Shown piece by piece: positions 19,631 through 35,730 of a stretch of 64,000 bases of DNA (positions are counted from its first letter, which is position 1; each line of letters begins with the position of its first letter). Under the pieces are notes generated by a model. It was given only the letters and a program-made list of their open reading frames with translations, did not search any database and had not been told where the DNA came from. Both the position numbers and the translations under genes were made by a program. Source of the stretch: Synergistaceae bacterium (GTDB lineage: Bacteria; Synergistota; Synergistia; Synergistales; Synergistaceae); contig JAIRWR010000029.1 in assembly GCA_031268885.1 (NCBI GenBank), positions 5,120 through 69,119 on the forward strand, in the 5' to 3' direction.

Positions 19631-19683
19631 AACTTTAACAGTTATAGATGGAAATATAGGGGACAGAGACGCTTATATCTCCT

Positions 19684-22700: not shown

Positions 22701-22734
22701 GAAAATCCCCCTCTCTGTATTTATCACTTATAAG

Positions 22735-23598: not shown

Positions 23599-23651
23599 GA
23601 AATTTCACTCCTCACAGTTAAATACTTGATTATATTAAAATAATCACGAAT

Positions 23652-23758: not shown

Positions 23759-24685
23759 CTGCTGAAGGACTTACGTTATGTAATGGACATATTTGAAACA
23801 AAAAATTTATCAAAGAGCGCAAGCCGTCTTTTCGTGACACAGCCTACGCTGACGCAATCTGTCAAAAGGCTTGAGGATTTTTTCTCGTCGAGGCTCTTCG
23901 AGAGAACTAAACACGGTATGGAACCAACTCCCGAGGGAATTCTGTTCATGGAGTACGCGTCGGATATAATAGCGCGTTGTGAAAAACTTAGAGAACGGAT
24001 GAAAAATGTTACACAGGGCGGGAAAGCATACTTGAAGGTTGGAACGGGGAAACTGTACGGAAAACATTTCATGCCGCTTTACATCAAGCCGTTCGGAGAA
24101 CGTCGGCCAGACATTGATATCGAATTCATTGAAGATCGTTCCGTGATTTTGGAATCAATGCTATTAAACGGCATCCTTGATATTGGCATCATACCAGCTC
24201 CCATAGAATCTAACATATTGATATCGCGGCCTCTTTTTTACGAGGAACTCTTCCTCGCTCTCCCCAGAGATCATAAGATGAATCTGCCCTATTATAACTA
24301 TACAGTTGCTGGAACCTTCCCTGAAATTGATCTGCACCTCCTCTCCGGTGAGATTTTCATAATTTCGAAGACGGGGTACAAATTACACGACCTTTTTACA
24401 AACATGTGTAAGATGATGGGCTTCAAACCACGAAGCACACTTGAAATCGAGAGCGTCGATACGATAATAAGCTTCGTAAGGAATAACAAAGGCATAGGGT
24501 TTGTACCCGATTCTTTCGCGAGGCGTGAGATGTGGGCGGAGAGCGTTAATTATTATCGTATAAAAAACGCGAACTGCAAACGGGCTTTTATGATAGTTCA
24601 TGCGGATGAGACAAAATTATCGCTTACCGCCGCCGAATTCGTGTCAGTTCTCTTTGAAATACAGGAAAAAATAGGATATAAATAA
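23756..24685 (+). CDS. LysR-family transcriptional regulator.
   Basis: N-terminal wHTH LKDLRYVMDIFETKNLSKSASRLFVTQPTLTQSVKRLE followed by a LysR substrate-binding domain. The start is ATG 23756 or GTG 23744; both lie inside the repeat arm. Confidence 0.9.
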   Translation: MLLKDLRYVMDIFETKNLSKSASRLFVTQPTLTQSVKRLEDFFSSRLFERTKHGMEPTPEGILFMEYASDIIARCEKLRERMKNVTQGGKAYLKVGTGKLYGKHFMPLYIKPFGERRPDIDIEFIEDRSVILESMLLNGILDIGIIPAPIESNILISRPLFYEELFLALPRDHKMNLPYYNYTVAGTFPEIDLHLLSGEIFIISKTGYKLHDLFTNMCKMMGFKPRSTLEIESVDTIISFVRNNKGIGFVPDSFARREMWAESVNYYRIKNANCKRAFMIVHADETKLSLTAAEFVSVLFEIQEKIGYK

Positions 24686-24714
24686 AAGAATCTCTCGACG
24701 TTGGTCCCGTGTAG

Positions 24715-24824
24715 CATGATTATTTTCACCCATAATATAAATATTTTTTATACATACATACATATATTTATATTATCCACTAATTTTACAAGAGTCAATG
24801 TGGTCTGATAAAATTTTTTACATC
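24715..24824. repeat. Right arm of the inverted repeat flanking the LysR gene (110 bp).
   Basis: See the left arm. It includes an inverted copy of the first LysR codons (CATGATTATTTTCAC). Confidence 0.95.
24785..24814 (+). promoter_or_regulatory. Outward-facing sigma70-like promoter in the right repeat arm, reading towards tctC.
   Basis: TTTACA (24785-24790), 17 nt, ATAAAAT (24808-24814). Sequence identical to the promoter in the left arm. Confidence 0.5.
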
Positions 24825-25023
24825 GGTTGAGCATATCTCTATTCTTGATGCCCTTATCAAATGTGACGAGGGAAAAGCTGAGCAAGCCCTCGAAAGATTA
24901 CTTTTTCTTCATTGCGTGAAGCGTTCCAAGGAGTGGCTTCATTGTTTTGAAGACATGAATCACTTTTCATGTGCGATCAAAAAAGGAGGGAGGGATCTAT
25001 TTGAGGAAAAATTGATCGACTAG
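24825..25023 (+). pseudogene. 5'-truncated remnant of a GntR-family (FCD C-terminal domain) regulator gene.
   Basis: The frame is open from the repeat edge to TAG 25021-25023 with no start codon. It reads VEHISILDALIKCDEGKAEQALERLLFLHCVKRSKEWL..., matching the EH..I..A....D...A.....H signature of FCD domain C-termini. Confidence 0.55.
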
Positions 25024-25133
25024 AAATACTGTTCTGCGCTGAAAAAGTGTCCAACTTTAGGTCCCGAATAGAACAAGGAATCAGTATTCGGCGACGGCAT
25101 GGCGACAATTTTCGACATAGAGGGGGAAGAGTT

Positions 25134-26096
25134 TTGAAAAAGGCGGTTTTGTTGATCGCGATAGCTTTTGTGTATTCTATACTTGGCGCGTCTGTATCTT
25201 TTGCTGCTGATTTCCCATCGAGAAAAATAGACATTATAGTTCCCTTCGGCCCCGGCAGCGGGACCGATACTACGATGAGAGCACTGGCGCCCTCGTTGCA
25301 AAAAGTACTCGGAGTTCCTGTCGTCGTTCAGAATATTGAGGGGAGCAGCGGACTTCGTGGTTTGGAGTACGCGTCCAAACAGCCCGCGGATGGCTATACG
25401 TTATTTCTGAACAACACCACGCATATATTGTTGGAGATGCAAAACCTCTCTCCCATAGCGCTTACCCAGAGCTTCGATCCGGTGGCTTGCGTGGTTCAGG
25501 ACTCGGTATTATTTACGGCGTCGGCGAATGGGCGCTTTAAGACCTGGAAGGATGTAGTCGCTTACGCTAAAGAAAATCCAGGCAAGGTCACAGTTTCCGG
25601 TTCTAGCCCCAGGGGAGTGGATGGCGTTTCTACACTCATGGTGGCCAAAGGAGCTGGAATAGAGGTTACATTCATCCCGTTCAACAGCGGCGCGGAGGCG
25701 ATGAGCGCCATCCTTGGCGGTCACGTCGACTTGGGAAATATGGGCCCGGCAGACGCTATGGAGATGATAAGAGGCGGCGAGATGAATGGTATTCTCGTAA
25801 CTTCCGAAAAGAGATTGGATATATTCCCAGACACCCCCACCACGTACGACGAGGGAATCAATGTGACAGCCGGAGCCTGGCGCGCGCTTGCCGTACCGAA
25901 AGGAACACCCCCTGAGGTAATCTCTAAACTTGAAAGCGCCATTAGAGAGGCGTATGACAGTCCGGAATTCCAGAAGTGGCTCAAGGATGTGACGTTGGAT
26001 CAACGTCCCGGCTGGAAAGATGCCAAGGGCCTCGGCGAACTCTGGCAGAGCGAGCTAATATACTTCAAGAAAGCTTTCGAAGAGATAGGATTGTAA
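25134..26096 (+). CDS. tctC: Tripartite tricarboxylate transporter substrate-binding protein (TctC / Bug family).
   Basis: Signal peptide LKKAVLLIAIAFVYSILGASVSFA. Bug-family blocks IDIIVPFGPGSGTDT and FIPFNSGAEA. The preferred start is TTG 25134 behind GAGGGGGA; the track start 25047 lacks an RBS. Confidence 0.85.
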   Translation: MKKAVLLIAIAFVYSILGASVSFAADFPSRKIDIIVPFGPGSGTDTTMRALAPSLQKVLGVPVVVQNIEGSSGLRGLEYASKQPADGYTLFLNNTTHILLEMQNLSPIALTQSFDPVACVVQDSVLFTASANGRFKTWKDVVAYAKENPGKVTVSGSSPRGVDGVSTLMVAKGAGIEVTFIPFNSGAEAMSAILGGHVDLGNMGPADAMEMIRGGEMNGILVTSEKRLDIFPDTPTTYDEGINVTAGAWRALAVPKGTPPEVISKLESAIREAYDSPEFQKWLKDVTLDQRPGWKDAKGLGELWQSELIYFKKAFEEIGL

Positions 26097-26127
26097 TTTT
26101 TCCGTAGACCTTAATTCCTCAAAGAAA

Positions 26128-26170
26128 GGCTCTTTCATCTAGGCGCTATACCGAGAAGAGAGGGCCTTTT
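26128..26170 (+). terminator. Imperfect hairpin plus TTTT between tctC and tctB (possible partial terminator/attenuator).
   Basis: GGCTCTTTC...GAAGAGAGGGCC stem with G-U pairs, then TTTT. This placement is typical for binding-protein over-expression relative to permease genes. Confidence 0.3.
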
Positions 26171-26199
26171 AAAATAAAAACTATCAAGGAGGTGCGGAA

Positions 26200-26700
26200 A
26201 TGGGTATAGAAATAATAGTGAACATAGTTTTCCTCTTGTTTTGCGTTTTTTGTTTCATACACGTCGGTGTTGGCGTTCAGCCTCTGGCCATACCCGGAGC
26301 CCTGAGTGGATCGGCATGGCCGAGAACGATTCTCGCTGGGCTTATAGTGGCGGTCACTCTGAATATTTACCTCACATATCGAAAAAACCATGCGCCTGGC
26401 GCGCCGCGAGAGATTCCGTTCAAAGAGTTCATGCCCCCGAAATTCATACTCTCCTTTGTCCTCATGTTGTTTTACGCGATAGGGATAAACTACCTGGGTT
26501 TCATCGTCAGTACGTTCATCTTTATCACCGCGTTTTCATATGTGATAGGGCTCAGGGAAAAAATCAAGATGATCTTTGGTGGCTTGGTAAGCACTGGAGT
26601 AATTTATATTGTCTTTCAGATCTTCCTCCAAGTGATGCTTCCGCGCGGAGTCGGTATTTTTCGCGAGATAAGCTTATGGCTAGAATTGTTAATACAGTGA
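26200..26700 (+). CDS. tctB: Tripartite tricarboxylate transporter small membrane subunit.
   Basis: 166 aa, four predicted hydrophobic helices, located between tctC and tctA. RBS AAGGAGGTG. Confidence 0.8.
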   Translation: MGIEIIVNIVFLLFCVFCFIHVGVGVQPLAIPGALSGSAWPRTILAGLIVAVTLNIYLTYRKNHAPGAPREIPFKEFMPPKFILSFVLMLFYAIGINYLGFIVSTFIFITAFSYVIGLREKIKMIFGGLVSTGVIYIVFQIFLQVMLPRGVGIFREISLWLELLIQ

Positions 26701-26710
26701 GGTGGCTGTC

Positions 26711-28216
26711 ATGAATCTTTTAGATTTGCTTGTCGCTGGCGCCAATGTAGTATTTACGCCCACCATATTGCTTTTTATATGTATCGGCAACGTAACAGGG
26801 GTAATCTTCGGGGCTCTGCCTGGGATCAGCGCGGCTATGGCTGTGGCGTTGATGGTTCCCTTTACCCTTACGCTCGACCCCATCGGTTCCATCGCTTTTC
26901 TCTCGGCTGTCTATTGTTCAGCGATAACGGGAGGCGGTATTCCAGCAATACTGTTCAAGATTCCCGGAACTCCATCAAGCGCCGTAACGACATTCGACGG
27001 TTTCCCTCTGGCACAAAGAGGACAGGCCGGCAAGGCGCTCTTATTAGTGCTGGTCTCCTCCGCTTTTGGCGGAATAGTCTCCGCTTTCGCCATGCTTCTC
27101 GTCTCGAGACAGCTTTCAAGTCTAGGGCTTCAATTCGGGCCGTCCGAACTCTTCGCGATAGCCTTCCTCGGCCTCAGCGTGCTGACGAGTATGGACGAAG
27201 ACAGAATGCTCAAAACAGTGATATCTGGTCTCACCGGATTGTTACTGGCAACTATAGCTATGGATCCTCTTGAAGGGACGCCGCGTTTAACGTTCGGTTT
27301 CGTGTATCTGCTGGGAGGCATACCGATGATTCCCATGATGGTCGGCATGTTCGCCGTATCGGAGGTTTTAAAGCAGGTCTGCAACCCCACGGAATTCGAC
27401 AAAATTGATGGCGGCTACCTGAAAGACTCTCCCATGAGGTTGTCTTTTTCCGAATGGTGGGGGCTCAAGTGGACTATGATCCGCTGTTCAGTTCTTGGGA
27501 CACTGGTCGGGATACTGCCCGGCGCGGGAGCAACCATTGCGTCGTTCCTGGGGTACGGTATGGAGATAAAACTCTCAAAACATCCGGAAGAGTTTGGAAA
27601 CGGTTCTCTAACAGGATTGTGCGCCTCAGAAACATCAAATAACGCCGCTACCGGAGGCTCGATGGTGCCATTGTTGTCCCTTGGCATACCAGGAGGTAAT
27701 TCGGCCGCGGTTATGGTAGCGGCATTAATGCTTCAGGGGGTTCAGGTAGGACCAATGCTCTTGAAAGCCCAGCCTACCTATCTTTCAAGTGTTTTCATAT
27801 CCATGATAGTCACCAACGTGATGATGGTCTTCATCTCGATAGCAGTGGCCAAGATGTTCTCTAAACTGATAAAAATTCCGTACTATTCACTGGGACCACT
27901 TATTATCCTGTTCGCAGCCGTGGGGAGCTACGCGGCACAGAACAATACAGGAGATGTGATGGTTACAATGTTAGCGGGCCTCGCTGGATATTTCATGGCT
28001 GAATTTAAATATTCTCCAGCTGCTCTCACGCTTGGTCTCGTCCTCGGTGATATATGCGAGAACAACCTAAGACGAGCGGTGATGATAGAACACGGCGACA
28101 TGCTGAACGTGTTCTCACGGCCCATAACAGCCACGTTGCTTGTCCTATGTGTGATATTCATTATCGTTCCTATAATAAGAAAACGGATGAGAGACAAACA
28201 CGCGCTGCTCTCCTGA
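26711..28216 (+). CDS. tctA: Tripartite tricarboxylate transporter large permease subunit.
   Basis: ~500 aa polytopic protein with GALPGISAAMAVAL and GILPGAGATIASF repeats typical of TctA. ATG 26711 lies behind GAGGTGG. Confidence 0.9.
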   Translation: MNLLDLLVAGANVVFTPTILLFICIGNVTGVIFGALPGISAAMAVALMVPFTLTLDPIGSIAFLSAVYCSAITGGGIPAILFKIPGTPSSAVTTFDGFPLAQRGQAGKALLLVLVSSAFGGIVSAFAMLLVSRQLSSLGLQFGPSELFAIAFLGLSVLTSMDEDRMLKTVISGLTGLLLATIAMDPLEGTPRLTFGFVYLLGGIPMIPMMVGMFAVSEVLKQVCNPTEFDKIDGGYLKDSPMRLSFSEWWGLKWTMIRCSVLGTLVGILPGAGATIASFLGYGMEIKLSKHPEEFGNGSLTGLCASETSNNAATGGSMVPLLSLGIPGGNSAAVMVAALMLQGVQVGPMLLKAQPTYLSSVFISMIVTNVMMVFISIAVAKMFSKLIKIPYYSLGPLIILFAAVGSYAAQNNTGDVMVTMLAGLAGYFMAEFKYSPAALTLGLVLGDICENNLRRAVMIEHGDMLNVFSRPITATLLVLCVIFIIVPIIRKRMRDKHALLS

Positions 28217-28249
28217 TCAAATTAAATTTTGAATAAATAATCATATTTA

Positions 28250-29662
28250 ATGAAGGAATGGTGTGTCTTGAATAAAACTGAAAATCCACTAAGGACTCTG
28301 GCGCAGTATATCGTTTCGATAAAAATCGAAGAGCTTCCGGCACAAGTAAAGCAAGCCGCTGTTCATTGTCTCGTTGACACGGTGGGAGCGGCGATCGGCG
28401 GGCTTGATTATGATGAGGTTCCAGAGGTGATAGAAACATTCCAAGCCTATTCAGGGCACTACTGCGAACGCGATCCCAGAGCTTCCGTATGGGGCACGCA
28501 TTTCAACACATCTGTCTTTCAAGCTTCCTTTTTAAACGGAATCCTGTCGCACGCACTTGAGTTAGACGATGTTCACACCGGCTCAAAAACTCATATCGGC
28601 GCTGTGGTAGCTCCCGCGGCTTGGTCTGTGGCAGAGGCGATAACAGCGTCGGGAGCGAATTTGATAGAAGCGTTGGTCGCGGGTTATGAAACGATGTCGA
28701 GAATAGGTCGTGGGTTTGGCGTATCTGATCACAGACTCAAGGGATGGCACGTGTCAGGTACGGCTGGAACGTTTGGAGCGGCCGCCGCCGCGGCCAAACT
28801 CCTTGGTTTAGACGCGGAAAGAACTTTAGCCGCTCTTGGCATGGCGGGAACACAATCGTCCGGTGTGTGGGCTTTTTTGGGAGACGGAGCAACCAGCAAA
28901 AAATTACACACTGGAAGATCCGCTGAAAACGGGGTCGTTGCCGCGTTCCTCGCTAAGGCTGGCATGACTGGCCCTGAGCATATTCTCGATTCCGAGGATG
29001 GCGGATTATACAGGACAATGTCTGGGTCGAGTGATTTGAGTGAAGTATCGCGAAAATTAGGGACTGTCTTCGAGATCCTGAACGTCGATAAGAAACCATA
29101 TTCCTGCTGTCGAAGCATGCACCCCGCGATAGATGCCATTCTGTCAGTTAAAAAAGAACTCGGCCTCCCTGCCAGTCAGATAAAAAAAGTTAAAATTAGA
29201 TCGTATGAAGTGGGCATTAAGCAGTGCGGGATCATAATGTATCCAGCAAATACCAGCGAATCCAAATTCTCAATGAGATTCGGCGTCGCAGTCGCTTATA
29301 TAGACGGCTTGGCGGGGAAGGAACAGTTCTCAACGGAGAGGATAAACGATCCTGAAGTACGCGCGCTAGCCGCTCGAGTCGATTATATCGCGGACAGCGA
29401 ATTTACCTCTCGTTATCCTAAAAATTGGGGTTGTTCTCTAGAAGTTACGATTGAAGATGGCTCCGTAATCAAAAAGGAAGTTCTTGATGCCTCTGGGAGC
29501 GTAGCAAATCCAATGACAGTGGAGCAGTTGAAAAAAAAGTTCAAATCACTTGTGTCTAGTTTCGTGGGGAACGAACGGTCGGAATTGATTTTAAAATCAC
29601 TTGAAAATATGGAGAATATTCCTGAAGTATCGGATATTTTGAGTCTTCATAGGGGGAAATGA
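28250..29662 (+). CDS. MmgE/PrpD-family protein (2-methylcitrate dehydratase-like).
   Basis: 470 aa. Family-typical blocks LELDDVH, GWH.SGTAGTFGAAAAAAKLLGL, GMAGTQSSG and KPY.CCR..HPAID. Confidence 0.85.
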   Translation: MKEWCVLNKTENPLRTLAQYIVSIKIEELPAQVKQAAVHCLVDTVGAAIGGLDYDEVPEVIETFQAYSGHYCERDPRASVWGTHFNTSVFQASFLNGILSHALELDDVHTGSKTHIGAVVAPAAWSVAEAITASGANLIEALVAGYETMSRIGRGFGVSDHRLKGWHVSGTAGTFGAAAAAAKLLGLDAERTLAALGMAGTQSSGVWAFLGDGATSKKLHTGRSAENGVVAAFLAKAGMTGPEHILDSEDGGLYRTMSGSSDLSEVSRKLGTVFEILNVDKKPYSCCRSMHPAIDAILSVKKELGLPASQIKKVKIRSYEVGIKQCGIIMYPANTSESKFSMRFGVAVAYIDGLAGKEQFSTERINDPEVRALAARVDYIADSEFTSRYPKNWGCSLEVTIEDGSVIKKEVLDASGSVANPMTVEQLKKKFKSLVSSFVGNERSELILKSLENMENIPEVSDILSLHRGK

Positions 29663-30948
29663 AATTGAATTACACTGAAATTGATTTCCCTGTCGGAAAG
29701 GGATTCGTCAGAGCGCATGTGCCGAATTTGATGGCAGTCGCGGCTCCAAAAAAAGTAAGAGGCGTACCCGACGAAAGAGCGGAGGTGAAAAGAGCGCTCA
29801 AAAATCCGATTGGAACTAGAATGCTCTCAGAAATCGCTCAAGGAAGGAAGAACGCAGCTATAGTGGTAAACGATATTACACGTCCCTATCCTGGCGCTCT
29901 TCTGGTCGATGAAATCGCTAACGAACTGACGCTAGCTGGTCTTAAGGACGAAGATATATTCCTTATCGTTGCTTACGGAACACATAGAGTGAACTCAGAT
30001 GATGAAATAAAAGGGATGTTCGGTGAGGAAATCACAACTCGCTTCCGCATAATTCACCATAAAGGCAGTGACGAAGATACCCTGATAACACTTGGAAAGA
30101 CCGAGCGAGGAATCCCTGTAACCGTAAACAGAGAATACCTTAACGCCGATGTCAAAATATTGACAGGATTGATAACTCCACATCATTCCGCTGGTTTTTC
30201 TGGCGGACGAAAGAGCGTTCTCCCTGGAATATCGGGACTGGAGACTCTTAAAATTCATCATTCATTTCCCTTTAGGCCGACACGTCCTTCTATGGGCTGG
30301 ATAAAGGACAACCCGTTTCACGAGGAGGCCCTTTCGGCCGCAAGGATGGCTGGCGTCGATTTCATAATCAACACTATTGATAATCCCAGCAGGGAGCTTG
30401 TAGCCGCAGTGGCCGGAGAATTGAATGACGCGCATATGGAAGGCGTAAGGATATGCAAAGATATATGGTCTTTTGAACTTCCATCAAAAGCAGATGTCGT
30501 GATAGTGAGTCCGGGAGGCTATCCCAGAGATTTCGACCTTCACCAATCCCAAAAAGCGTGTGCTTGCGCTGAACTGGCTTGTCGTGAAGGAGGAGAAATT
30601 ATTCTATGTGCCGAAGCGACAGACGGGCCGGGGAAATTTGCGAAATTACTAATGGATGCAAACGACCCGCAGGAAGTTATCGACAAATACGCCAGAGAAG
30701 GTTTTACAGCCGAGGTAACATCTAAAGCGTACATGTACGCCAGAGCAATGAAGAGCCATAAAATAGGCCTCGCGTGCAGCATGGTATCCGACGATACAGC
30801 GCGGAACATGTTCATGACTCCGTACAGGACAATAGATGATGGCATTAAAGACGCTATGGACATCTACGGAGAAACCGCGTCCTTTCTAGCAATTCCATAT
30901 GCGGCAGACATAATATTGACACACTCTGGGGAGGAGTCTCTTTTATGA
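29659..30948 (+). CDS. LarA-family (nickel-pincer-nucleotide dependent) 2-hydroxyacid racemase/epimerase homologue.
   Basis: VNDITRPYP, AYGTHR, TPHHSAGFSGGRKSVLPG and KIHHS blocks correspond to the catalytic His/His, the NPN-tethering Lys and the Ni-ligand His positions of lactate racemase as I recall them. The start overlaps the upstream stop as ATGA. Confidence 0.8.
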   Translation: MKLNYTEIDFPVGKGFVRAHVPNLMAVAAPKKVRGVPDERAEVKRALKNPIGTRMLSEIAQGRKNAAIVVNDITRPYPGALLVDEIANELTLAGLKDEDIFLIVAYGTHRVNSDDEIKGMFGEEITTRFRIIHHKGSDEDTLITLGKTERGIPVTVNREYLNADVKILTGLITPHHSAGFSGGRKSVLPGISGLETLKIHHSFPFRPTRPSMGWIKDNPFHEEALSAARMAGVDFIINTIDNPSRELVAAVAGELNDAHMEGVRICKDIWSFELPSKADVVIVSPGGYPRDFDLHQSQKACACAELACREGGEIILCAEATDGPGKFAKLLMDANDPQEVIDKYAREGFTAEVTSKAYMYARAMKSHKIGLACSMVSDDTARNMFMTPYRTIDDGIKDAMDIYGETASFLAIPYAADIILTHSGEESLL

Positions 30949-32087
30949 GAAAGTTCAGAGCGGTGTTCATGCGCGGTGGAACCAGTAAGGGGTTGATATT
31001 TCGAAGAGAGGACCTTCCGGAAGATCAGCGCGATTGGGATTCAATATTTCTTCAAGCAATGGGTAACCCAGATGTGAAACAGATCGACGGACTTGGCGGA
31101 ACAGTGTCCTCAAATAATAAAATCGTTGTGGTTTGGAGATCTGAAAAGGAAGGAGTCGATGTTGAATACCTTGTCGGTCAAGTCGTAGTTGGGAAAGATC
31201 AAGTCGATTACAAAGCAAATTGCGGAAACATGACCTCCGCGGTCGGTCCTTTCGCGCTTGACGAAGGGCTTGTCCAACCCAGCGGCGATCTGATGACGGT
31301 CAGGCTGTTCAACAAGAACACTGATAAAAAGATCGACGTCTCTTTTCCTCTGAGAGACGGAAGATTCGCGTTGGAAGGCAACTGTAAAATAGCCGGAATT
31401 GACGGAACCGCCGCGGAAATCAAAGTGAATTTCTTAGATCCGGCAGGCGCCAAAACAGGCTGCCTCCTGCCGACGGGAAAACAGCGTGAAATTCTCGACG
31501 TGCCTGGCGTGGGGAAAATAGATGTTTCAATTATAGATATTAGCGGTCCTTTCATCATGGTTAATGCTGACGACATTGGACTTGAAGGCATTGAGACCCC
31601 TGAAGAGATAAATAGCAATGCCGAAACATGTGAAAAGCTCGAAAAAATACGCGGTCTAGCCGCTTGTACCATAGGTATGGCGTGTGATATGGAAGACGCG
31701 TCCGCAAATTCACCGGCTTTGCCCAAAATAGGAGTGTGTTCCATTCCAAAGAGATATAAAGACCTGTCGGGTAGGACTGTAGACACAACCGAAATGGATT
31801 TATTGGTCAGAGTGATGTCGGTATTCAAATGCCATAAAGCGAGCCCTCTTACAGCCGCTTGCGCGATAGCTGGCATGGCTGTCATAGATGGAACGATACC
31901 GAACAGCCTGATGAAACGACAAGTTCCAGAGACTGGGGAGATACCCATTCGCATAGCGCATCCCAGCGGAGTCATGACAATGTATGCCGATCTCCAACTA
32001 AGCGGCGGAAAGCCCTTTATCGCTGGAGTCGCTGCACAGCGCACGTCAAGACGAATAATGGACGGAACAGTCTATATAAGGAAGTGA
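30945..32087 (+). CDS. PrpF-family isomerase (2-methylaconitate / aconitate cis-trans isomerase-like).
   Basis: MRKFRAVFMRGGTSKGLIF...QIDGLGG...ANCGNM. ATGA overlap with the LarA-like stop. Confidence 0.85.
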   Translation: MRKFRAVFMRGGTSKGLIFRREDLPEDQRDWDSIFLQAMGNPDVKQIDGLGGTVSSNNKIVVVWRSEKEGVDVEYLVGQVVVGKDQVDYKANCGNMTSAVGPFALDEGLVQPSGDLMTVRLFNKNTDKKIDVSFPLRDGRFALEGNCKIAGIDGTAAEIKVNFLDPAGAKTGCLLPTGKQREILDVPGVGKIDVSIIDISGPFIMVNADDIGLEGIETPEEINSNAETCEKLEKIRGLAACTIGMACDMEDASANSPALPKIGVCSIPKRYKDLSGRTVDTTEMDLLVRVMSVFKCHKASPLTAACAIAGMAVIDGTIPNSLMKRQVPETGEIPIRIAHPSGVMTMYADLQLSGGKPFIAGVAAQRTSRRIMDGTVYIRK

Positions 32088-32092
32088 CAGAT

Positions 32093-33265
32093 ATGAACGC
32101 ACAGATTGATAAAGCAGCCGAAGAATTCAGAAATCTACTTGAAACCGAATTCAAGAGAATTGGACTTATGAAAGAAACTCTGACTCCTATTAACCATGAA
32201 AATATGGATAAAATTGTCGTAGGAATAATTCCAGGAGACGGAATAGGCCCGCTAATCATGAGTCAAACAGAGCGAGTACTTCACGAACTCGCTGGCAGTG
32301 AGATATCGAACGGACGAATGGAGTTACGTCACATAGGAGGCCTCGATATAGAGAACCGAGCGGCTCTAAAACAATCCGTACCAGAAGATATCATGACCGA
32401 AATAAAAAAATGTCAGATTATACTAAAAGGTCCGATGACAACCCCTCGCCCTGGAGATCCGTGGCCCAATATGATAAGCGCTAATTCTCTGCTTCGCAGA
32501 GGATTGGACCTCTTTTGCAATATGCGCCCCGTATCAATGCCTGAAAAGGCAATAGACTGGACCTTCTTCAGGGAGAATATCGAAGGAGCTTACATATGGG
32601 GTAATAAAGGGATACAAGTTAACAGTGACTTAGCTGTCGACTTCGTGATAGAAACACGCCAAGGCAGTGAAAGGATAGCGCGCGCAGCCTTTGAATACGC
32701 TCGCAAAACTGGCAAACGATTCGTGACCGCGGTGACAAAAGCTAATATAGTAAAGCTAACCGACGGCAACTTCTTGAAAGTATGCCGCTCCGTCGCCTCC
32801 GAATATCCGGGGATAAATTACGATGAACGTCTCGTTGATATTGTGGCCGCTAAACTAGGGGATACAGAGTTCAATGAAAATTTACAAGTTTTCATACTAC
32901 CTAATCTTTATGGTGACATCATATCGGACATAGCAGCCGAAATGCAAGGCGGCGTTGGTTCTGCCGGAAGCGCGAACCTCGGCGCTAGATACGCTCTGTT
33001 CGAAGCGGTTCACGGAACCGCTCCTTTTCTCATGCAAAACAACCGAGGGGAATATGCCGATCCCAGCAGTCTATTACGCGCGCTATCCCTTATGTTATTA
33101 CACATTGGAATGCGGGATAAATCAAAGTTATTGGACAGAGCGCTCGATATATGCGGGAGAACGGAACGGAAGATTACAATTACGAGCAAGAGAGAAGATG
33201 CCTCGACCAAGGAATATACCGATTATATTCTTAGAACAATCGCGGAACTGAGGAGAAAAGACTGA
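32093..33265 (+). CDS. Isocitrate/isopropylmalate dehydrogenase-family oxidative decarboxylase, isocitrate-type.
   Basis: GIIPGDGIGP, LKGPMTTP....SANSLLRRGLDLFCNMRP (S-x-N as in isocitrate dehydrogenases), NLYGDIISD. The start ATG 32093 (MNAQIDK) is preferred because the track extension to 31859 overlaps prpF. Confidence 0.85.
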   Translation: MNAQIDKAAEEFRNLLETEFKRIGLMKETLTPINHENMDKIVVGIIPGDGIGPLIMSQTERVLHELAGSEISNGRMELRHIGGLDIENRAALKQSVPEDIMTEIKKCQIILKGPMTTPRPGDPWPNMISANSLLRRGLDLFCNMRPVSMPEKAIDWTFFRENIEGAYIWGNKGIQVNSDLAVDFVIETRQGSERIARAAFEYARKTGKRFVTAVTKANIVKLTDGNFLKVCRSVASEYPGINYDERLVDIVAAKLGDTEFNENLQVFILPNLYGDIISDIAAEMQGGVGSAGSANLGARYALFEAVHGTAPFLMQNNRGEYADPSSLLRALSLMLLHIGMRDKSKLLDRALDICGRTERKITITSKREDASTKEYTDYILRTIAELRRKD

Positions 33266-35571
33266 TGACGATAAGACTTTCGGCAGGTGGAACTTATCTC
33301 TGCCGCGGCACGATTCTCATACCAGACGACGAGGATGCCCAGGCCGTATTGAAACAGGAGACGGGCCGTATTATCTCCAGAGAGGAAGGACGGCGCGGCA
33401 CGATTGCTTACTCCATTCTCTCTTCACACAACATTGGCGACAATAAAAATTTAAGAATAAAATTCGATGCCATGTCGATGCACGATATCACTTCGGTTGG
33501 AGTCATACAAACTGCCAGAGCAAGCGGAATGAAAAATTTTCCGGTTCCGATGATCATGACGAACTGTCATAACAGCCTTTGCGCAGTGGGTGGAACTATA
33601 AATCAAGATGACCACGTCTTCGCGCTCTCCGCCGCGAAAAAATACGGGGGCGTATACGTCCCGCCGCATCTCGCCGTTATCCACTCGTACAATAGAGAGA
33701 TGCTGGCAGGCTGCGGAAAAATGATCCTGGCAACAGACAGCCATACGCGTTATGGAGCGCTTGGCGCTATGGCTGTCGGTGAAGGCGGCGGAGAGCTGGT
33801 TAAACAATTAATAGGTAAAACATATGACATTAGTTACCCCGAAGTGATAGCGATCTACCTGACCGGGAAACCTCAAAAGGGTGTCGGGCCACATGATGTC
33901 GCGCTATCTATAATAGGTGCGGTATTCGAAAAGGGTTATGTAAAAAACAAAGTGCTGGAGTTTATTGGAGAAGGGATAACAGAGCTGTCCGTAGATTTCA
34001 GAAACGGAATAGACGTCATGACAACGGAGACTGCTTGCTGGAGTTCAATATGGAAAACCGACAAAAAAATTAAAGATTTCTTAGAAATTCATGGACGTCC
34101 TTCAGAATATGCTGAACTATCTCCCGCTGAAGTCGCGTACTATGATGGAGTAGTCCACGTCAATCTTTCGGCGATAGAACCAAGCATCGCTATGCCGTTT
34201 CACCCGAGCAACGTATTTACAATACGGGAGTTTCGCAAAAACGCTGTTTCTATAATGGCTGAAGTGGAGGAAAGGGGACGCGGTCTGTCCGGTTCAAAAA
34301 CTGTGGATTTTAAACTGAGAAAGAAGGTTAAAAACAACGAAATTTTTGTCGATCAAGCCGTAGTATGTGGTTGCGCGGGGGGGACGTTCGACAATATAAC
34401 GGCTGTCGCGGATATTCTTGCCGGAAACACGACGGGGAACGGAGTCTTTTCCATGAGTATCTACCCAGGAAGCCAGCCAATATATATTGAACTCGTGAAA
34501 AACGGTACTATTGAAAGCCTCATGAAGAGCGGCGTGATAATACGGTCCGCGTTCTGCGGGCCCTGTTTTGGCGCTGGAGATACGCCAGCTAATGGGGAGT
34601 TTTCCATTCGTCACACGACGCGCAACTTTCCTAGCAGGGAAGGATCTAAGTCCGGTGAAGGTCAGTCGGCTTCGGTGGCATTGATGGATGCTAGATCCAT
34701 CGCGGCGACAGCTTTGAATGGCGGGATACTAACAGCCGCTGACGAGCTTGACGCGGACTACAGGACAGTGAGATTCTTCTTTGACGCTTCGATTTATAAC
34801 AGACGGGTATATGATGGAGTAGGAAAACCTGTCCCTGATACAGAACTTGTTTTGGGACCAAACATTAAAAGTTGGCCGGAGATATCATCGCTTACGGATG
34901 ATATACTACTTAAGGTCGTGAGCTATATAACAGATTCTGTTACTACCACTGATGAACTGTTGCCATCCGGCGAAACTTCGTCATTCCGCTCTAATCCGTT
35001 GAAACTGGCTGAATTTACCTTGGGCCGCAAGGATCCCGGGTACGTATCGCGCGCGAGGTCTATTAAGAAGATCGACGACGACAGGCGTTCGAACATAAAC
35101 CCCGCGGATAACATAGAACTTGCCGCTGTATACGAAAAAATCCGGCAGATACCAGGAAATGAAAAAAAATCCACAATGGAAATCGGCATAGGAAGCGTTA
35201 TATATGCCAATAAACCAGGAGACGGTTCGGCACGCGAACAAGCCGCTTCATGTCAGAAGCTGCTGGGAACTTTCGCGAACATCGCTCGCGAATACGCGAC
35301 TAAGAGGTATCGCTCAAATCTCATTAACTGGGGGATAATACCCTTCCTTACAGATGATGGCGCATCGCTTTGCCTTGGAAATTACGTTTATTTTCCATCA
35401 ATAAAGCAAGCTATATTGGAAAAAAGTGAAACGATAAGAGGTTTCGTGATAGAAGGTGAAAACGTCAGAGAGATAGAGGCGAGACTTGGCGAATTGACTG
35501 ATGAAGAACGTAAGATAATCGTGGATGGATGTCTTATTAATCACTACAGAGGTCAGATGCCTTCTCTCTGA
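33265..35571 (+). CDS. Aconitase-family hydratase (768 aa).
   Basis: ATDSHTRYGALGAMAVGEGGGE, CGPCFGAGD and RNFPSREGS blocks. The start overlaps the upstream stop (TGATG). Confidence 0.9.
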   Translation: MTIRLSAGGTYLCRGTILIPDDEDAQAVLKQETGRIISREEGRRGTIAYSILSSHNIGDNKNLRIKFDAMSMHDITSVGVIQTARASGMKNFPVPMIMTNCHNSLCAVGGTINQDDHVFALSAAKKYGGVYVPPHLAVIHSYNREMLAGCGKMILATDSHTRYGALGAMAVGEGGGELVKQLIGKTYDISYPEVIAIYLTGKPQKGVGPHDVALSIIGAVFEKGYVKNKVLEFIGEGITELSVDFRNGIDVMTTETACWSSIWKTDKKIKDFLEIHGRPSEYAELSPAEVAYYDGVVHVNLSAIEPSIAMPFHPSNVFTIREFRKNAVSIMAEVEERGRGLSGSKTVDFKLRKKVKNNEIFVDQAVVCGCAGGTFDNITAVADILAGNTTGNGVFSMSIYPGSQPIYIELVKNGTIESLMKSGVIIRSAFCGPCFGAGDTPANGEFSIRHTTRNFPSREGSKSGEGQSASVALMDARSIAATALNGGILTAADELDADYRTVRFFFDASIYNRRVYDGVGKPVPDTELVLGPNIKSWPEISSLTDDILLKVVSYITDSVTTTDELLPSGETSSFRSNPLKLAEFTLGRKDPGYVSRARSIKKIDDDRRSNINPADNIELAAVYEKIRQIPGNEKKSTMEIGIGSVIYANKPGDGSAREQAASCQKLLGTFANIAREYATKRYRSNLINWGIIPFLTDDGASLCLGNYVYFPSIKQAILEKSETIRGFVIEGENVREIEARLGELTDEERKIIVDGCLINHYRGQMPSL

Positions 35572-35627
35572 CGCCGGTCACAAAGCAGTGCGTTATGCCG
35601 CGCCTCAACGCGCGGAGTATAATGACC

Positions 35628-35640
35628 GCAATAAACACCG
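35628..35640. repeat. Right copy of the 13-nt direct repeat GCAATAAACACCG.
   Basis: Identical to 19583..19595. It lies in the intergenic region just after the aconitase gene, where base composition returns to GC-rich. Confidence 0.5.
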
Positions 35641-35730
35641 TATCAGCGATGAGTCTGTGGAGGAGCGAATCACCGCTTATACGGTAAAAATGTCGGGATC
35701 TCAAAAGTCCTATTTGAACCGCGCCTGATT

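What the first reader, a model, noticed from the sequence alone, without database searches (positions are those of the whole stretch)
25134..35571. TctCBA + PrpD-like + LarA-like + PrpF-like + IDH-like + aconitase operon: candidate undescribed pathway for tricarboxylate isomers
Eight same-strand genes are tightly packed. The last five are translationally coupled: ATGA at 29659-29662 and 30945-30948, TGATG at 33263-33267, and a 5-nt gap before 32093.

The content is unusual. PrpF next to an aconitase-family enzyme recalls the AcnD/PrpF pair of the alternative methylcitrate route, and a PrpD-family dehydratase is also present. However, there is no methylcitrate synthase (PrpC), no methylisocitrate lyase (PrpB) and no CoA ligase. 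Instead there is a TctABC importer for free tricarboxylates. There is also an IDH-family enzyme that keeps the isocitrate-type S-x-N motif, and a LarA-family racemase/epimerase with its catalytic residues intact.

One reading consistent with these genes is as follows. A non-canonical tricarboxylate is imported, for example trans-aconitate, an isocitrate diastereomer, or a hydroxycitrate, methylcitrate or homocitrate type compound. It is then dehydrated/rehydrated, geometrically isomerised and epimerised at the 2-hydroxyl. Finally it is oxidatively decarboxylated to 2-oxoglutarate or a homologue.

I am not aware of a characterised pathway with this gene set, or of a LarA homologue assigned to a tricarboxylate substrate.
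Basis: partly seen in the sequence, partly recalled or inferred. Interest (0 to 1): 0.8.

Follow-up and report, generated by a model that had tools for sequence, protein, structure and literature searches.

The report
Undescribed tricarboxylate-isomer catabolic gene island
A horizontally acquired gene island in a Synergistaceae genome encodes a carboxylate importer and five enzymes that most likely convert unusual isomers of aconitate/isocitrate into 2-oxoglutarate, and it includes a nickel-dependent epimerase of a type never yet linked to such substrates.

Summary
Eight same-strand genes, with the stated overlaps, encode TctCBA, an MmgE/PrpD-family protein, a LarA homologue, a PrpF-family isomerase, an IDH-family dehydrogenase and a YbhJ-type Fe-S hydro-lyase.

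The unit is larger than reported. It is a sharp-edged low-GC island (about 19.3-35.7 kb) that also carries a LysR regulator and a divergent DUF6282-Dabb-OYE operon. A duplicated ~113-nt promoter region brackets lysR and precedes both operons.

Comparative genomics shows two conserved modules:
- TTT transporter + PrpD-like + LarA-like.
- PrpF + IDH-like + YbhJ.

They recur in Synergistota, Lachnospiraceae-like contigs and Ilyobacter. Their partners there include bona fide NADP-isocitrate dehydrogenases, aconitate hydratases and citrate-lyase genes. Some LarA homologues are fused to an aconitase small subunit.

This supports a citrate-family (aconitate/isocitrate-isomer) funnel to 2-oxoglutarate, with LarA as a C2 epimerase. 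Two labels in the finding are over-specific:
- "PrpD dehydratase": the protein is closer to iminodisuccinate epimerase.
- "Tricarboxylate importer": the ligand is unknown.

I found no published pathway for this gene set. The substrate remains inferred.

The parts
19336..35730 (.). Low-GC island (GC 0.38-0.53) inserted between housekeeping genes (GC 0.54-0.60)
   Evidence: The composition profile shows sharp edges at ~19.3 kb and ~35.6 kb. The flanks encode pheST, infC and LuxR-type regulators on one side, and DUF218, Mo-cofactor genes, AOR, dnaG, rpoD, eno and secDF on the other. There is no tRNA, integrase or flanking direct repeat.
20497..22407 (-). OYE / 2,4-dienoyl-CoA-reductase-type Fe-S flavoenzyme (enoate-reductase-like); last gene of the divergent operon
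   Evidence: Pfam Oxidored_FMN + Pyr_redox_2. Best NCBIfam hit is BaiCD, 392 bits against a cutoff of 825. The internal ATG at 22407 forms an ATGA overlap with the Dabb stop codon. OYE homologues also lie near LarA/PrpD-like genes in L006 and L008.
22404..22727 (-). Dabb (stress-responsive alpha/beta barrel) protein
   Evidence: Pfam PF07876, 86 bits. The DUF6282-Dabb pair is conserved in L094 and L095.
22735..23598 (-). DUF6282 protein: predicted metal-dependent amidohydrolase-superfamily hydrolase (lactonase- or amidase-like)
   Evidence: Pfam DUF6282, 219 bits. AlphaFold model pLDDT 95. Foldseek best matches are E. coli Php, phosphotriesterase-like lactonases and dihydroorotase, with TM ~0.6. 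Invariant residues: D10, H12, H14, K44, H157, H182, D241. It is in one operon with PrpD-like and LarA in [Clostridium] asparagiforme DSM 15981.
23652..23760 (.). Left arm of the ~113-nt inverted repeat: the divergent promoter region between DUF6282 and lysR, including the first 17 nt of lysR
   Evidence: 92% mean column identity. Promoter-like hexamers TTTACA-18-TAAAAT with a TG motif.
23744..24685 (+). LysR-type transcriptional regulator
   Evidence: Pfam HTH_1 + LysR_substrate. LysR genes also flank related clusters in L086, L091, L094, L096, L018 and L099.
24713..24824 (.). Right arm of the inverted repeat: a copy of the DUF6282-ward promoter, here pointing towards tctC
25134..26096 (+). 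TctC-family periplasmic binding protein (TTT transporter)
   Evidence: Pfam TctC, 137 bits. Signal peptide. Orthologues at 55-67% identity in L086, L088, L091 and L092.
26200..26700 (+). TctB small membrane subunit
   Evidence: Pfam TctB.
26702..28216 (+). TctA large membrane subunit (the start is probably ATG 26711)
   Evidence: Pfam TctA, 459 bits. Junction sequence. Orthologues at 68-82% identity.
28250..29662 (+). MmgE/PrpD-family enzyme, iminodisuccinate-epimerase-like. Candidate hydro-lyase or C3 epimerase acting on a substituted succinate
   Evidence: Pfam. PDB sequence search: IDS epimerase 191 bits, cis-aconitate decarboxylase 132, PrpD ~50. PrpD equivalogs score 49-81 bits against cutoffs of 458-950. 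Orthologues at 62-66% identity are always found with LarA-like.
29659..30948 (+). LarA-family nickel-pincer-nucleotide 2-hydroxyacid epimerase, in a clade distinct from the malate racemases
   Evidence: Pfam Lar_N + LarA_C. LarAH6 malate-racemase model scores 400 bits against a cutoff of 500. Mar2 6d6z scores 259 bits. Catalytic residues are invariant. The specificity position equivalent to W358 is S/A/G instead of H/Q. K356 and R362 are invariant.
30945..32087 (+). PrpF-family double-bond (cis-trans / delta) isomerase
   Evidence: Pfam PrpF, 383 bits. It falls below both equivalog cutoffs. PDB: Mii 3g7k 264 bits, PrpF 253, YbhH 187. The residues aligned to the Mii Lys and Cys are conserved.
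32093..33265 (+). IDH-family beta-decarboxylating dehydrogenase of an uncharacterised subfamily
   Evidence: Pfam Iso_dh. All NCBIfam equivalogs score below cutoff; the best is an IDH model at 244 bits against 509. S-x-N and the catalytic residues are conserved. The subfamily is abundant in Firmicutes.
33265..35571 (+). YbhJ-type aconitase-family Fe-S hydro-lyase
   Evidence: NCBIfam PRK11413, 1214 bits against a cutoff of 641. AcnD model scores 71 bits against 1420. The three cluster cysteines and the Ser/Arg of the GSxRE motif align to mitochondrial aconitase.

Best explanation
This is a LysR-controlled, horizontally acquired catabolic island. It imports a citrate-family C6 carboxylate other than ordinary citrate or isocitrate and funnels it to 2-oxoglutarate. 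The most likely substrates are trans-aconitate and/or non-physiological isocitrate diastereomers, possibly delivered as a lactone.

Proposed steps:
1. The TctCBA transporter takes up the acid.
2. The PrpF-family enzyme moves or flips the double bond (trans- to cis-aconitate).
3. The YbhJ-type Fe-S hydro-lyase and the iminodisuccinate-epimerase-like MmgE/PrpD protein interconvert enoate and hydroxy acid. The latter either hydrates or dehydrates an aconitate/isocitrate isomer, or inverts C3 through an enolate.
4. The LarA homologue inverts the C2 hydroxyl of the resulting 'wrong' isocitrate diastereomer through its nickel-pincer cofactor, giving (2R,3S)-isocitrate. Anti-hydration of trans-aconitate would give an erythro isomer that differs from natural isocitrate only at C2.
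5. The IDH-family enzyme oxidatively decarboxylates it to 2-oxoglutarate.

The divergent DUF6282 (hydrolase) - Dabb - enoate-reductase operon shares the promoter/operator and probably handles a precursor or side branch, such as lactone opening or enoate reduction.

Shown: gene families, intact catalytic residues, operon structure, conserved co-occurrence, modularity. Inferred: the substrate, the reaction of each enzyme and their order.
For: 1. Operon: tight same-strand packing, with translational coupling of the last five genes.

2. Conservation of the core. Orthologous TctCBA + PrpD-like + LarA-like (55-82% identity) occurs in L086, L088, L091 and L092. L091 adds an orthologous PrpF (66%) and YbhJ (63%), in a different gene order.

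3. Specificity of the linkage. A PrpD-family neighbour is present in 13 of 23 distinct loci whose LarA is at least 40% identical, and in 0 of 65 loci with more distant LarAs (Fisher p = 1e-9).

4. Rosetta stone. Two LarA homologues of this clade (P0022, P0044) carry aconitase-family domains (PF06434, PF00694). P0022 has the aconitase small-subunit domain fused ahead of LarA and lies next to an aconitase large subunit and TctCBA.

5. Isocitrate end point.
- The dehydrogenase slot is filled by bona fide NADP-IDHs in L091 (PRK08299, 623 bits against a cutoff of 335) and L088 (TIGR00183, 626 against 567).
- S-x-N is invariant and the catalytic residues are conserved in the window's IDH subfamily.

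6. Citrate-family context of PrpF-IDH-YbhJ.
- L098 has CitD-CitE-CitF-IDH(69%)-PrpF(51%)-YbhJ(64%).
- L096 has LysR-RraA-aconitate hydratase-IDH(62%)-YbhJ(49%).
- Ilyobacter polytropus has PrpF(52%)-IDH(58%)-YbhJ, divergent from HpcH-aconitate hydratase-2-hydroxyacid dehydrogenase-2-hydroxycarboxylate transporter.
- PRK07229 aconitate hydratases accompany or replace YbhJ in L084 and L092.

7. LarA pocket. The lysine that binds the second carboxylate in malate racemases is kept. The H/Q is replaced by S/A/G in all 30 clade members, and an invariant Arg362 replaces Glu of Mar2. This is compatible with a malate that carries an extra acidic substituent (signature from PMC11770544).

8. Precedent. 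LysR + PrpF-superfamily aconitate isomerase + importer is a proven trans-aconitate assimilation system (PMC11495376).

9. Co-regulation. A ~113-nt promoter region is duplicated in inverted orientation in front of both operons. DUF6282 is co-operonic with PrpD-like and LarA in [Clostridium] asparagiforme.
Against: - No enzyme here or in any orthologous cluster has been assayed, so the substrate is inferred only from family, motifs and neighbours.
- The route is partly redundant. PrpF + YbhJ + IDH alone would convert trans-aconitate to 2-oxoglutarate. Why PrpD-like + LarA are also needed is explained only by hypothesis.
- The LarA homologue's nearest characterised relatives are malate racemases. 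Related DUF6282-Dabb clusters (L094, L095) lead to oxaloacetate decarboxylase or aldolase-type enzymes, which fits C4 or other hydroxy acids.
- The IDH in L088 is followed by housekeeping genes and may be adjacent by chance.
- The 'CitDEF' genes in L098 could be a citramalate lyase.
- The PrpF protein is as close to 3-methylitaconate isomerase as to PrpF.
- No larBCE cofactor genes are in the window.
Confidence: 0.5

Rival explanations
1. C5 branched-dicarboxylate pathway (itaconate / citraconate / mesaconate / 3-methylmalate / methylsuccinate). PrpF-like isomerises itaconate to citraconate. YbhJ hydrates it to 3-methylmalate. LarA fixes C2. The IDH-like enzyme makes 2-oxobutyrate. PrpD-like acts as a methylsuccinate-isomerase-type enzyme, and the OYE enzyme reduces the enoate.
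For: - The best solved relative of PrpF-like is 3-methylitaconate isomerase (264 bits).
- The MmgE/PrpD family includes methylsuccinate isomerase and cis-aconitate decarboxylase (PMC12290011).
- An enoate-reductase-like gene lies in the co-regulated operon and near PrpD/LarA homologues in L006 and L008.
- The citrate-lyase-like genes in L098 could be a citramalate lyase.
Against: - The IDH-like subfamily keeps the invariant Ser/Asn pair that recognises the gamma-carboxylate of isocitrate. A pocket for a methyl group would be expected to be hydrophobic.
- Bona fide NADP-IDHs fill the slot in L091 and L088.
- Bona fide aconitate hydratases are partners.
Confidence: 0.13
2. Hydroxycitrate (Garcinia / Hibiscus acid) catabolism. 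DUF6282 opens the lactone. LarA epimerises C2. PrpD-like dehydrates to the enol of oxalosuccinate. The IDH-like enzyme decarboxylates it to 2-oxoglutarate.
For: - DUF6282 has a lactonase/amidohydrolase-like fold and is co-regulated.
- DUF6282 is co-operonic with PrpD-like and LarA in [Clostridium] asparagiforme.
- Hydroxycitrate has the secondary 2-hydroxyl that LarA chemistry needs. IDH enzymes decarboxylate oxalosuccinate (established enzymology).
- No published catabolic genes were found.
Against: - It gives no role to PrpF or to the YbhJ hydro-lyase, which are translationally coupled to LarA.
- The fold match is distant (12-15% identity, TM ~0.6).
- The proposal rests on chemical reasoning alone.
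Confidence: 0.12
3. C4 dicarboxylate pathway. LarA is simply a malate (or tartrate) racemase, and the IDH-like enzyme is a D-malate or tartrate dehydrogenase. The hydro-lyases act on maleate, fumarate or tartrate-type acids.
For: - The closest characterised LarA relatives are malate racemases (Mar2 259 bits; LarAH6 model 400 bits). The L018 homologue scores 499.2 against a cutoff of 500.
- L095 combines a LarA with Ldh_2 and an RraA-like oxaloacetate decarboxylase/aldolase. L094 ends in an OadA-like protein.
- The TTT ligand is unknown.
Against: - The malate-racemase cutoff is missed. The H/Q signature residue is replaced by S/A/G throughout the clade.
- The tartrate dehydrogenase models score far below the IDH models (141 against 244 bits).
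- There are links to IDH, aconitate hydratase and citrate lyase.
- LarA is fused to an aconitase subunit.
Confidence: 0.1
4. A mosaic of two or more independent modules that merely ended up in one operon: TTT + PrpD-like + LarA for one substrate, and PrpF + IDH + YbhJ for another. There would be no single sequential pathway.
For: Each module occurs alone elsewhere: the core alone in L086, and the trio alone in L098, L096 and L099.
Against: - Translational coupling runs across the module boundary (LarA/PrpF ATGA overlap).
- The same combination recurs in L091 and L092, and partly in L084, in other gene orders.
- There is only one transporter and one regulator.
Confidence: 0.1
5. A variant of the 2-methylcitrate cycle (AcnD/PrpF plus PrpD) for propionate-derived methylcitrate.
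For: PrpD-, PrpF- and aconitase-family genes occur together.
Against: - The PrpD, PrpF and AcnD equivalog cutoffs are missed by wide margins (81 against 950, 294 against 441, 71 against 1420).
- None of the 31 largest window ORFs scanned with Pfam belongs to a prpB, prpC or CoA-ligase family.
- PrpD-like is closer to IDS epimerase.
Confidence: 0.03

Closest known systems
tarR-tarA-tarB trans-aconitate assimilation system of Bacillus velezensis (PMC11495376)
   Same: A LysR regulator next to an operon with an importer and a PrpF-superfamily isomerase. The logic is to convert a non-TCA aconitate isomer into a TCA intermediate.
   Different: - Here the transporter is a TTT system, not TarB.
- Four further enzymes are present (PrpD-like, LarA, IDH-like, YbhJ).
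- lysR is co-directional and bracketed by an inverted promoter repeat.
- Orthology of the PrpF protein to TarA was not tested.
AcnD/PrpF (and PrpD) branch of the 2-methylcitrate cycle (PMC5690661)
   Same: It pairs an aconitase-family dehydratase with a PrpF isomerase, and an MmgE/PrpD-family member is present.
   Different: - The aconitase is YbhJ-type, not AcnD.
- All three equivalog cutoffs are missed.
- There is no PrpB, PrpC or PrpE.
- IDH and LarA are added.
E. coli ybhD-ybhH-ybhI-ybhJ cluster (uncharacterised; PMC9068703)
   Same: A YbhJ-family hydro-lyase (equivalog cutoff passed), a PrpF-family protein, a carboxylate transporter and a LysR regulator.
   Different: - E. coli uses a transporter that PMC9068703 describes as homologous to a 2-oxoglutarate/malate translocator, not a TTT system.
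- E. coli has no IDH-like, LarA or PrpD-like gene.
- The window's PrpF protein is closer to Mii/PrpF than to YbhH.
- The function in E. coli is itself unknown.
LarAH6/Mar2 nickel-pincer malate racemase (PDB 6d6z; PMC7583248, PMC11770544)
   Same: The same superfamily, both catalytic histidines, the NPN-binding residues, and the lysine that binds the distal carboxylate.
   Different: - It scores below the family cutoff.
- The H/Q specificity residue is replaced by S/A/G, and there is an extra invariant Arg.
- Its neighbours are PrpD-family and aconitase-family genes, not the malic enzyme listed for LarAH group 6.
Iminodisuccinate epimerase and methylsuccinate isomerase of the MmgE/PrpD family (PDB 2hp0; PMC12290011)
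   Same: This is the best-scoring solved relative of the PrpD-like protein. The family chemistry is enolate formation on a substituted succinate.
   Different: The substrate and the reaction type (epimerase, hydro-lyase or decarboxylase) are untested here. The genomic context is different.
3-methylitaconate isomerase + dimethylmalate dehydratase of Eubacterium barkeri nicotinate fermentation (PDB 3g7k; the pathway is recalled from my own knowledge)
   Same: A PrpF-family delta-isomerase is followed by an aconitase-family hydratase acting on a substituted maleate.
   Different: No mutase, lyase or other nicotinate-pathway genes are present. The IDH-like enzyme carries the isocitrate-type motif.

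Membership tests
LarA superfamily (NPN-dependent 2-hydroxyacid racemase/epimerase) | Lar_N and LarA_C domains | tested here: met
   Pfam: 201.5 and 74.3 bits, both above cutoff.
LarA superfamily (NPN-dependent 2-hydroxyacid racemase/epimerase) | Two catalytic histidines (LarA1 H108, H174) and the NPN-binding R75, K184 and H200 | tested here: met
   H109, H175, R75, K185 and H201 are invariant in 30 clade members. Residue roles are from PMC11770544.
LarA superfamily (NPN-dependent 2-hydroxyacid racemase/epimerase) | larB, larC and larE cofactor-synthesis genes in the same genome | not testable with these tools
   None among the 31 largest window ORFs scanned with Pfam. The rest of the MAG is not available.
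Malate racemase (LarAH6/MAR2) | NCBIfam NF052593 score at or above 500 | tested here: not met
   399.7 bits.
Malate racemase (LarAH6/MAR2) | H/Q and K at the positions equivalent to LarA1 W358 and T359 | tested here: not met
   K356 is present and invariant. The first position is Ser in the window and S/A/G in all 30 clade members.
2-methylcitrate dehydratase PrpD | Equivalog model score above cutoff | tested here: not met
   80.6 against 950, 64.3 against 575, 49.2 against 458. PDB PrpD scores ~50 bits against 191 for IDS epimerase.
2-methylcitrate dehydratase PrpD | prpB, prpC and prpE in the neighbourhood | tested here: not met
   None of the 31 largest window ORFs scanned with Pfam belongs to these families.
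MmgE/PrpD superfamily | MmgE_PrpD N- and C-terminal domains | tested here: met
   241.8 and 142.5 bits.
AcnD / PrpF pair | AcnD (TIGR02333) and PrpF (TIGR02334) equivalog cutoffs | tested here: not met
   71.1 against 1419.85 and 293.7 against 440.55.
YbhJ-family hydratase (PRK11413) | Equivalog cutoff passed, and aconitase-type [4Fe-4S] cysteines present | tested here: met
   1214.3 bits against 641. C370 and the CGPC motif align to the stretches of mitochondrial aconitase that carry the three cluster cysteines (C358, C421, C424 by my recollection of the numbering), and GSAREQ aligns to GSSREH.
Isocitrate dehydrogenase | An NCBIfam IDH equivalog cutoff | tested here: not met
   The best is PRK09222, 244.3 bits against 509.
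Isocitrate dehydrogenase | Ser-x-Asn gamma-carboxylate motif plus the Arg/Tyr/Lys/Asp catalytic set | tested here: met
   S129, N131, R135, R145, R160, Y167, K216, D275 and D279 are invariant, and the D249 column is at least 90% conserved. They align to two bona fide IDHs. Equivalence to E. coli S113/N115 rests on my knowledge of that enzyme.
Tripartite tricarboxylate transporter (TTT) | TctC, TctB and TctA components | tested here: met
   Pfam: 137, 57 and 459 bits.
Tripartite tricarboxylate transporter (TTT) | A tricarboxylate as the ligand | not testable with these tools
   The nearest solved binding proteins include BugD, Bug27 and terephthalate-binding proteins. The best hit (25hk) has no ligand stated in the output.
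Tar-type trans-aconitate assimilation system | LysR regulator + PrpF-superfamily aconitate isomerase + dedicated importer | tested here: inconclusive
   The LysR gene, a PrpF-family gene and an importer are present. The importer family differs, and similarity to TarA/TbrA could not be measured because no sequences were at hand.

The most novel reading that the evidence does not exclude
This LarA clade is a bacterial isocitrate (3-substituted malate) 2-epimerase. That would be the first nickel-pincer enzyme for a tricarboxylate, and it would supply a gene for the orphan activity 'isocitrate epimerase' (EC 5.1.2.6, recalled from memory). Together with an iminodisuccinate-epimerase-like MmgE/PrpD enzyme it would form a previously unknown two-step, aconitase-independent route from trans-aconitate (or from non-natural isocitrate diastereomers or their lactones) to (2R,3S)-isocitrate. 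The route would be spread by horizontal transfer among anaerobes of guts and digesters.
Probability: 0.25. Interest if true: 0.75.

Novelty: new variant of a known kind. Interest (0 to 1): 0.6.

Why it matters
- It would extend nickel-pincer (LarA) chemistry from mono- and dicarboxylic hydroxy acids to citrate-family acids.
- It would give first functions to the widespread YbhJ hydro-lyase family, which includes an E. coli y-gene.
- It would do the same for a large uncharacterised IDH-like subfamily common in gut Firmicutes, for a branch of the poorly understood MmgE/PrpD family, and for DUF6282.
- It would show how anaerobes use plant-derived isomers such as trans-aconitate, which inhibits ordinary aconitase (PMC11495376).
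- The hypothesis can be tested directly, because cultured carriers exist: [Clostridium] asparagiforme DSM 15981, Ilyobacter polytropus DSM 2926 and Paenibacillus validus NBRC 15382.

Tried and rejected
- Rfam scan of the whole window: no hit, so there is no known riboswitch in the ~310-nt tctC leader.
- tRNA scan and repeat search at the island borders: no tRNA, and no flanking direct repeats.
- PDB sequence search for DUF6282: only chance-level hits. This was resolved by a structure prediction and Foldseek instead.
- PDB search for TctC: gave no ligand assignment.
- The Mar2 structure paper (PMC9388697) is not held. The specificity positions were taken from PMC11770544 instead.
- Literature searches returned nothing that describes this gene set. 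Terms covered LarA with isocitrate/citrate/PrpD/TTT, ybhJ/ybhH, hydroxycitrate catabolism, and isocitrate epimerase/alloisocitrate.
- The genome-contig scan did not contain the source MAG or close Synergistaceae relatives (best 57-60% identity). The closest contexts came from metagenome contig look-ups instead.
- The methylcitrate-cycle reading was considered and rejected on the equivalog cutoffs and the missing prpBCE genes.
- The reaction type of the PrpD-like protein was not pursued from active-site residues. The published residue sets do not discriminate between the activities.

Full report
**Observation**

- TTG start of tctC at 25134, behind a strong ribosome-binding site.
- ATGA overlaps at 29659 and 30945.
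- A 5-nt gap before 32093.
- TGATG at 33263.

Pfam confirms TctC, TctB, TctA, MmgE/PrpD, LarA (Lar_N + LarA_C), PrpF and Iso_dh. NCBIfam places the last gene firmly in the YbhJ 'hydratase' family (PRK11413, 1214 bits against a cutoff of 641). Every other enzyme falls below all equivalog cutoffs:

| Model | Score (bits) | Cutoff (bits) |
|---|---|---|
| PrpD (three models) | 49-81 | 458-950 |
| PrpF | 294 | 441 |
| AcnD | 71 | 1420 |
| Best IDH model | 244 | 509 |
| LarAH6 malate racemase | 400 | 500 |

So these are divergent members of known superfamilies, and none is a named enzyme.

**Anatomy beyond the given coordinates**

The cluster lies in a low-GC segment (0.38-0.53) with sharp edges at about 19.3 kb and 35.6 kb. 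The right edge coincides with the end of the last gene. The surrounding DNA has GC 0.54-0.60 and encodes housekeeping functions: pheST, infC, Mo-cofactor genes, AOR, dnaG, rpoD, eno and secDF. No tRNA, integrase or border repeats were found.

The island also holds a LysR gene (23744-24685) and a divergent operon on the minus strand:
- DUF6282 (22735-23598).
- A Dabb protein (22404-22727).
- An OYE / dienoyl-CoA-reductase-type Fe-S flavoenzyme (20497-22407). It is coupled to Dabb by an ATGA overlap.

lysR is bracketed by a ~113-nt inverted repeat with arms at about 23652-23760 and 24713-24824, at 92% column identity.
- The left arm is the divergent DUF6282/lysR promoter region. It includes the first 17 nt of lysR.
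- The right arm places the DUF6282-ward promoter-like site (TTTACA-18-TAAAAT with TG) in front of tctC.
- The simplest reading is that both operons share one operator/promoter and form one regulon.
- Recombination between the arms could also invert lysR. This was not tested.

**Individual proteins**

*LarA homologue.* Both catalytic histidines and the cofactor-binding residues are invariant. Its closest solved relative is the malate racemase Mar2 (259 bits).
- Published specificity positions say that malate racemases have H/Q and K at the positions equivalent to LarA1 W358 and T359 (PMC11770544).
- This clade keeps the Lys (K356).
- All 30 aligned members have S/A/G in place of H/Q, plus an invariant Arg362 where Mar2 has Glu.
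- This fits a malate-like substrate that carries an additional, probably acidic, substituent.

*'PrpD-like' protein.* It scores 191 bits to iminodisuccinate epimerase, 132 to cis-aconitate decarboxylase and ~50 to PrpD. The family includes dehydratases, decarboxylases, epimerases and a methylsuccinate isomerase, and all are thought to act through an enolate on a substituted succinate (PMC12290011). 'Dehydratase' is therefore not established.

*PrpF-like protein.* It is about equally close to 3-methylitaconate isomerase (264 bits) and PrpF (253 bits). The aligned Lys and Cys are conserved.

*IDH-like protein.* It belongs to a large unnamed subfamily with many 60-74% identical relatives in Firmicutes. 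S129-x-N131 is invariant, the Arg/Tyr/Lys/Asp set is conserved, and all align to two bona fide IDHs.

*YbhJ-like protein.* It keeps the three cluster cysteines and the catalytic Ser/Arg motif.

*DUF6282.* It models with pLDDT 95 as an amidohydrolase-superfamily barrel. The best matches are Php, phosphotriesterase-like lactonases and dihydroorotase (TM ~0.6, 12-15% identity). It has an invariant HxH...H...H...D set. It is a metal-dependent hydrolase of unknown substrate.

**Comparative genomics**

The 100% LarA hit names a Synergistaceae MAG. Contexts of the closest LarA homologues were as follows.

| Locus | Gene content |
|---|---|
| L086 | LysR, TctCBA, PrpD-like, LarA only |
| L088 | The same core followed by an IDH |
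| L091 | LysR, PrpD-like, GntR / TctCBA-LarA-PrpF-YbhJ-PrpF-IDH |
| L092 | GntR / TctCBA-PrpD-like-LarA-PrpF-PrpF-aconitate hydratase |
| L084 | Ldh_2-HpcH-LarA-aconitate hydratase-TctCBA, opposite YbhJ-PrpD-like-CitF |

Orthologue identities are 55-82% (TTT), 62-66% (PrpD-like), 64-74% (LarA), 66% (PrpF) and 60-63% (YbhJ).

Further results:
- The IDHs of L091 and L088 pass the curated cutoffs of two different true-IDH families (623 against 335, and 626 against 567). This is non-orthologous displacement, and it points to isocitrate as the final intermediate. The L088 gene could nevertheless be a housekeeping neighbour.
- Across 88 distinct loci, a PrpD-family neighbour accompanies LarA in 13 of 23 loci with at least 40% LarA identity, and in 0 of 65 with less (p = 1e-9). 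Aconitase-family neighbours are also enriched (p = 7e-4).
- Two homologues (P0022, P0044) carry aconitase-family domains. P0022 is a fusion of an aconitase small subunit with LarA and lies next to the large subunit and TctCBA.
- In [Clostridium] asparagiforme DSM 15981 the operon reads PrpD-like-LarA-TAXI/TRAP transporter-DUF6282, with a divergent LysR. DUF6282 therefore belongs to the system, and the transporter type is interchangeable.
- DUF6282-Dabb pairs also occur with TTT transporters and with oxaloacetate-decarboxylase or aldolase-type enzymes (L094, L095).

The PrpF-IDH-like-YbhJ trio is a second conserved module:
- L098: GntR-CitD-CitE-CitF-IDH(69%)-PrpF(51%)-YbhJ(64%).
- L096/97, an Enterocloster-like contig whose IDH-like protein is indexed in 262 blocks of the collection: LysR-RraA-aconitate hydratase-IDH(62%)-YbhJ(49%).
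- Ilyobacter polytropus DSM 2926: PrpF(52%)-IDH(58%)-YbhJ (frameshifted). It is divergent from HpcH-aconitate hydratase-2-hydroxyacid dehydrogenase-2-hydroxycarboxylate transporter.

**Mechanism**

The partners (true IDHs, aconitate hydratases, citrate-lyase genes, a 2-hydroxycarboxylate transporter), the invariant isocitrate-type motif and the LarA pocket together favour citrate-family C6 acids.

A chemically coherent scheme uses every enzyme:
1. Import of trans-aconitate and/or non-natural isocitrate diastereomers.
2. PrpF-type isomerisation of the double bond.
3. Hydration and dehydration by YbhJ and by the PrpD-like enzyme. Alternatively the PrpD-like enzyme epimerises C3.
4. C2 inversion by LarA, giving (2R,3S)-isocitrate.
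5. Oxidative decarboxylation to 2-oxoglutarate.

Anti-hydration of trans-aconitate would give an erythro isomer that differs from natural isocitrate only at C2. That would explain why the minimal conserved core is transporter + PrpD-like + LarA. This step is inference from stereochemistry and was not tested.

A proven precedent for the front end exists: the LysR/PrpF-superfamily/importer trans-aconitate system of Bacillus velezensis (PMC11495376).

I put about 0.5 on the general statement and about 0.25 on the specific LarA = isocitrate 2-epimerase reading.

The rivals are set out in the rival-explanations section with their tests:
- C5 branched dicarboxylates.
- Hydroxycitrate and its lactones.
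- C4 malate or tartrate.
- A mere mosaic of modules.
- A methylcitrate-cycle variant.

**Comparison with what is known, and novelty**

The closest known systems are:
- The Tar trans-aconitate system.
- The AcnD/PrpF branch of the methylcitrate cycle.
- The uncharacterised E. coli ybhDHIJ cluster (PMC9068703).
- The LarAH6/Mar2 malate racemases.
- IDS epimerase and methylsuccinate isomerase.

Membership in the PrpD, AcnD, PrpF, malate-racemase and IDH equivalog families was tested and not met. Membership in YbhJ, TTT, and the LarA and MmgE/PrpD superfamilies was met.

The two survey papers on LarA homologues never mention citrate, aconitate, tricarboxylates or PrpD. The supplementary context table of the 2020 paper lists TTT genes only for a group associated with altronate dehydratase, and it has no PrpD COG. 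Searches on ybhJ, hydroxycitrate catabolism and isocitrate epimerase found no description of this gene set. The library is limited to open-access papers, so absence there is not proof.

I rate this a new variant of a known kind: an organic-acid catabolic operon built from known superfamilies, in a combination and with a predicted substrate class that have not been described.

**Verdict**

Interest is 0.6.

Noticed in passing
window 23652-23760 and 24713-24824: A ~113-nt inverted repeat (92% column identity) brackets lysR. It duplicates the divergent promoter region, including the first 17 nt of lysR, in front of tctC. It could be a shared operator for two operons, or it could allow lysR to invert by recombination.
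   Followed up: partly
window ~19336-35730: A low-GC island with sharp edges lies inside a housekeeping region. It has no tRNA, integrase or border repeats. The related core cluster in L088 is also low-GC relative to its flanks (0.43 against 0.55), which suggests a mobile module.
   Followed up: partly
window 22735-23598 (-); also L018, L094, L095: DUF6282 gives a confident amidohydrolase-superfamily model (pLDDT 95) with distant matches to Php and phosphotriesterase-like lactonases. It is nearly always followed by a Dabb protein and sits with TTT or TRAP transporters. Its function is unknown.
   Followed up: partly
L001 10001-11806 (protein P0022); protein P0044: Natural fusions of an aconitase small-subunit (swivel) domain to a LarA homologue. 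In L001 the fusion lies next to an aconitase large subunit, a NicX-like gene and TctCBA.
   Followed up: partly
L096/L097; proteins P0313 and P0331: The IDH-like subfamily is very common in gut metagenome contigs (P0313 is indexed in 262 blocks of the collection). It sits in a LysR-RraA-aconitate hydratase-IDH-like-YbhJ operon in Enterocloster-like genomes. Sources name it only 'isocitrate/isopropylmalate family dehydrogenase'.
   Followed up: partly
L099 12387-14514 (Ilyobacter polytropus DSM 2926 pILYOP01): The YbhJ homologue downstream of PrpF-IDH-like matches in two reading frames that meet near 12630, and it is missing from the gene table. It is probably frameshifted or a pseudogene in this strain.
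   Followed up: no
window 14146-16728 (-) and 16792-19335 (-): Two tandem ~850-aa open reading frames at the left border of the island. The second carries a C-terminal LuxR/GerE HTH domain (Pfam). By eye both look like MalT-type regulators with an N-terminal NTPase-like motif. Their targets are unknown.
   Followed up: no
window 2248-4086 (+): One ORF combines a D-Ala-D-Ala carboxypeptidase (Peptidase_S11) domain with a class-I fumarate hydratase domain (residues 399-607). It is either an unusual fusion or two genes read through.
   Followed up: no
window ~50000-52000: A second low-GC stretch (0.43). It holds a 233-aa ORF with no Pfam hit and a flavodoxin-like gene, both on the minus strand.
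   Followed up: no
window 36701-43757: MoeB/ThiF-like, MobB-like and two MoeA-type genes (one fused to a PBP-like domain) lie next to an aldehyde:ferredoxin oxidoreductase. This looks like a tungsten/molybdenum cofactor and AOR locus just downstream of the island. The MoeB and MobB labels are from reading the translations only.
   Followed up: no
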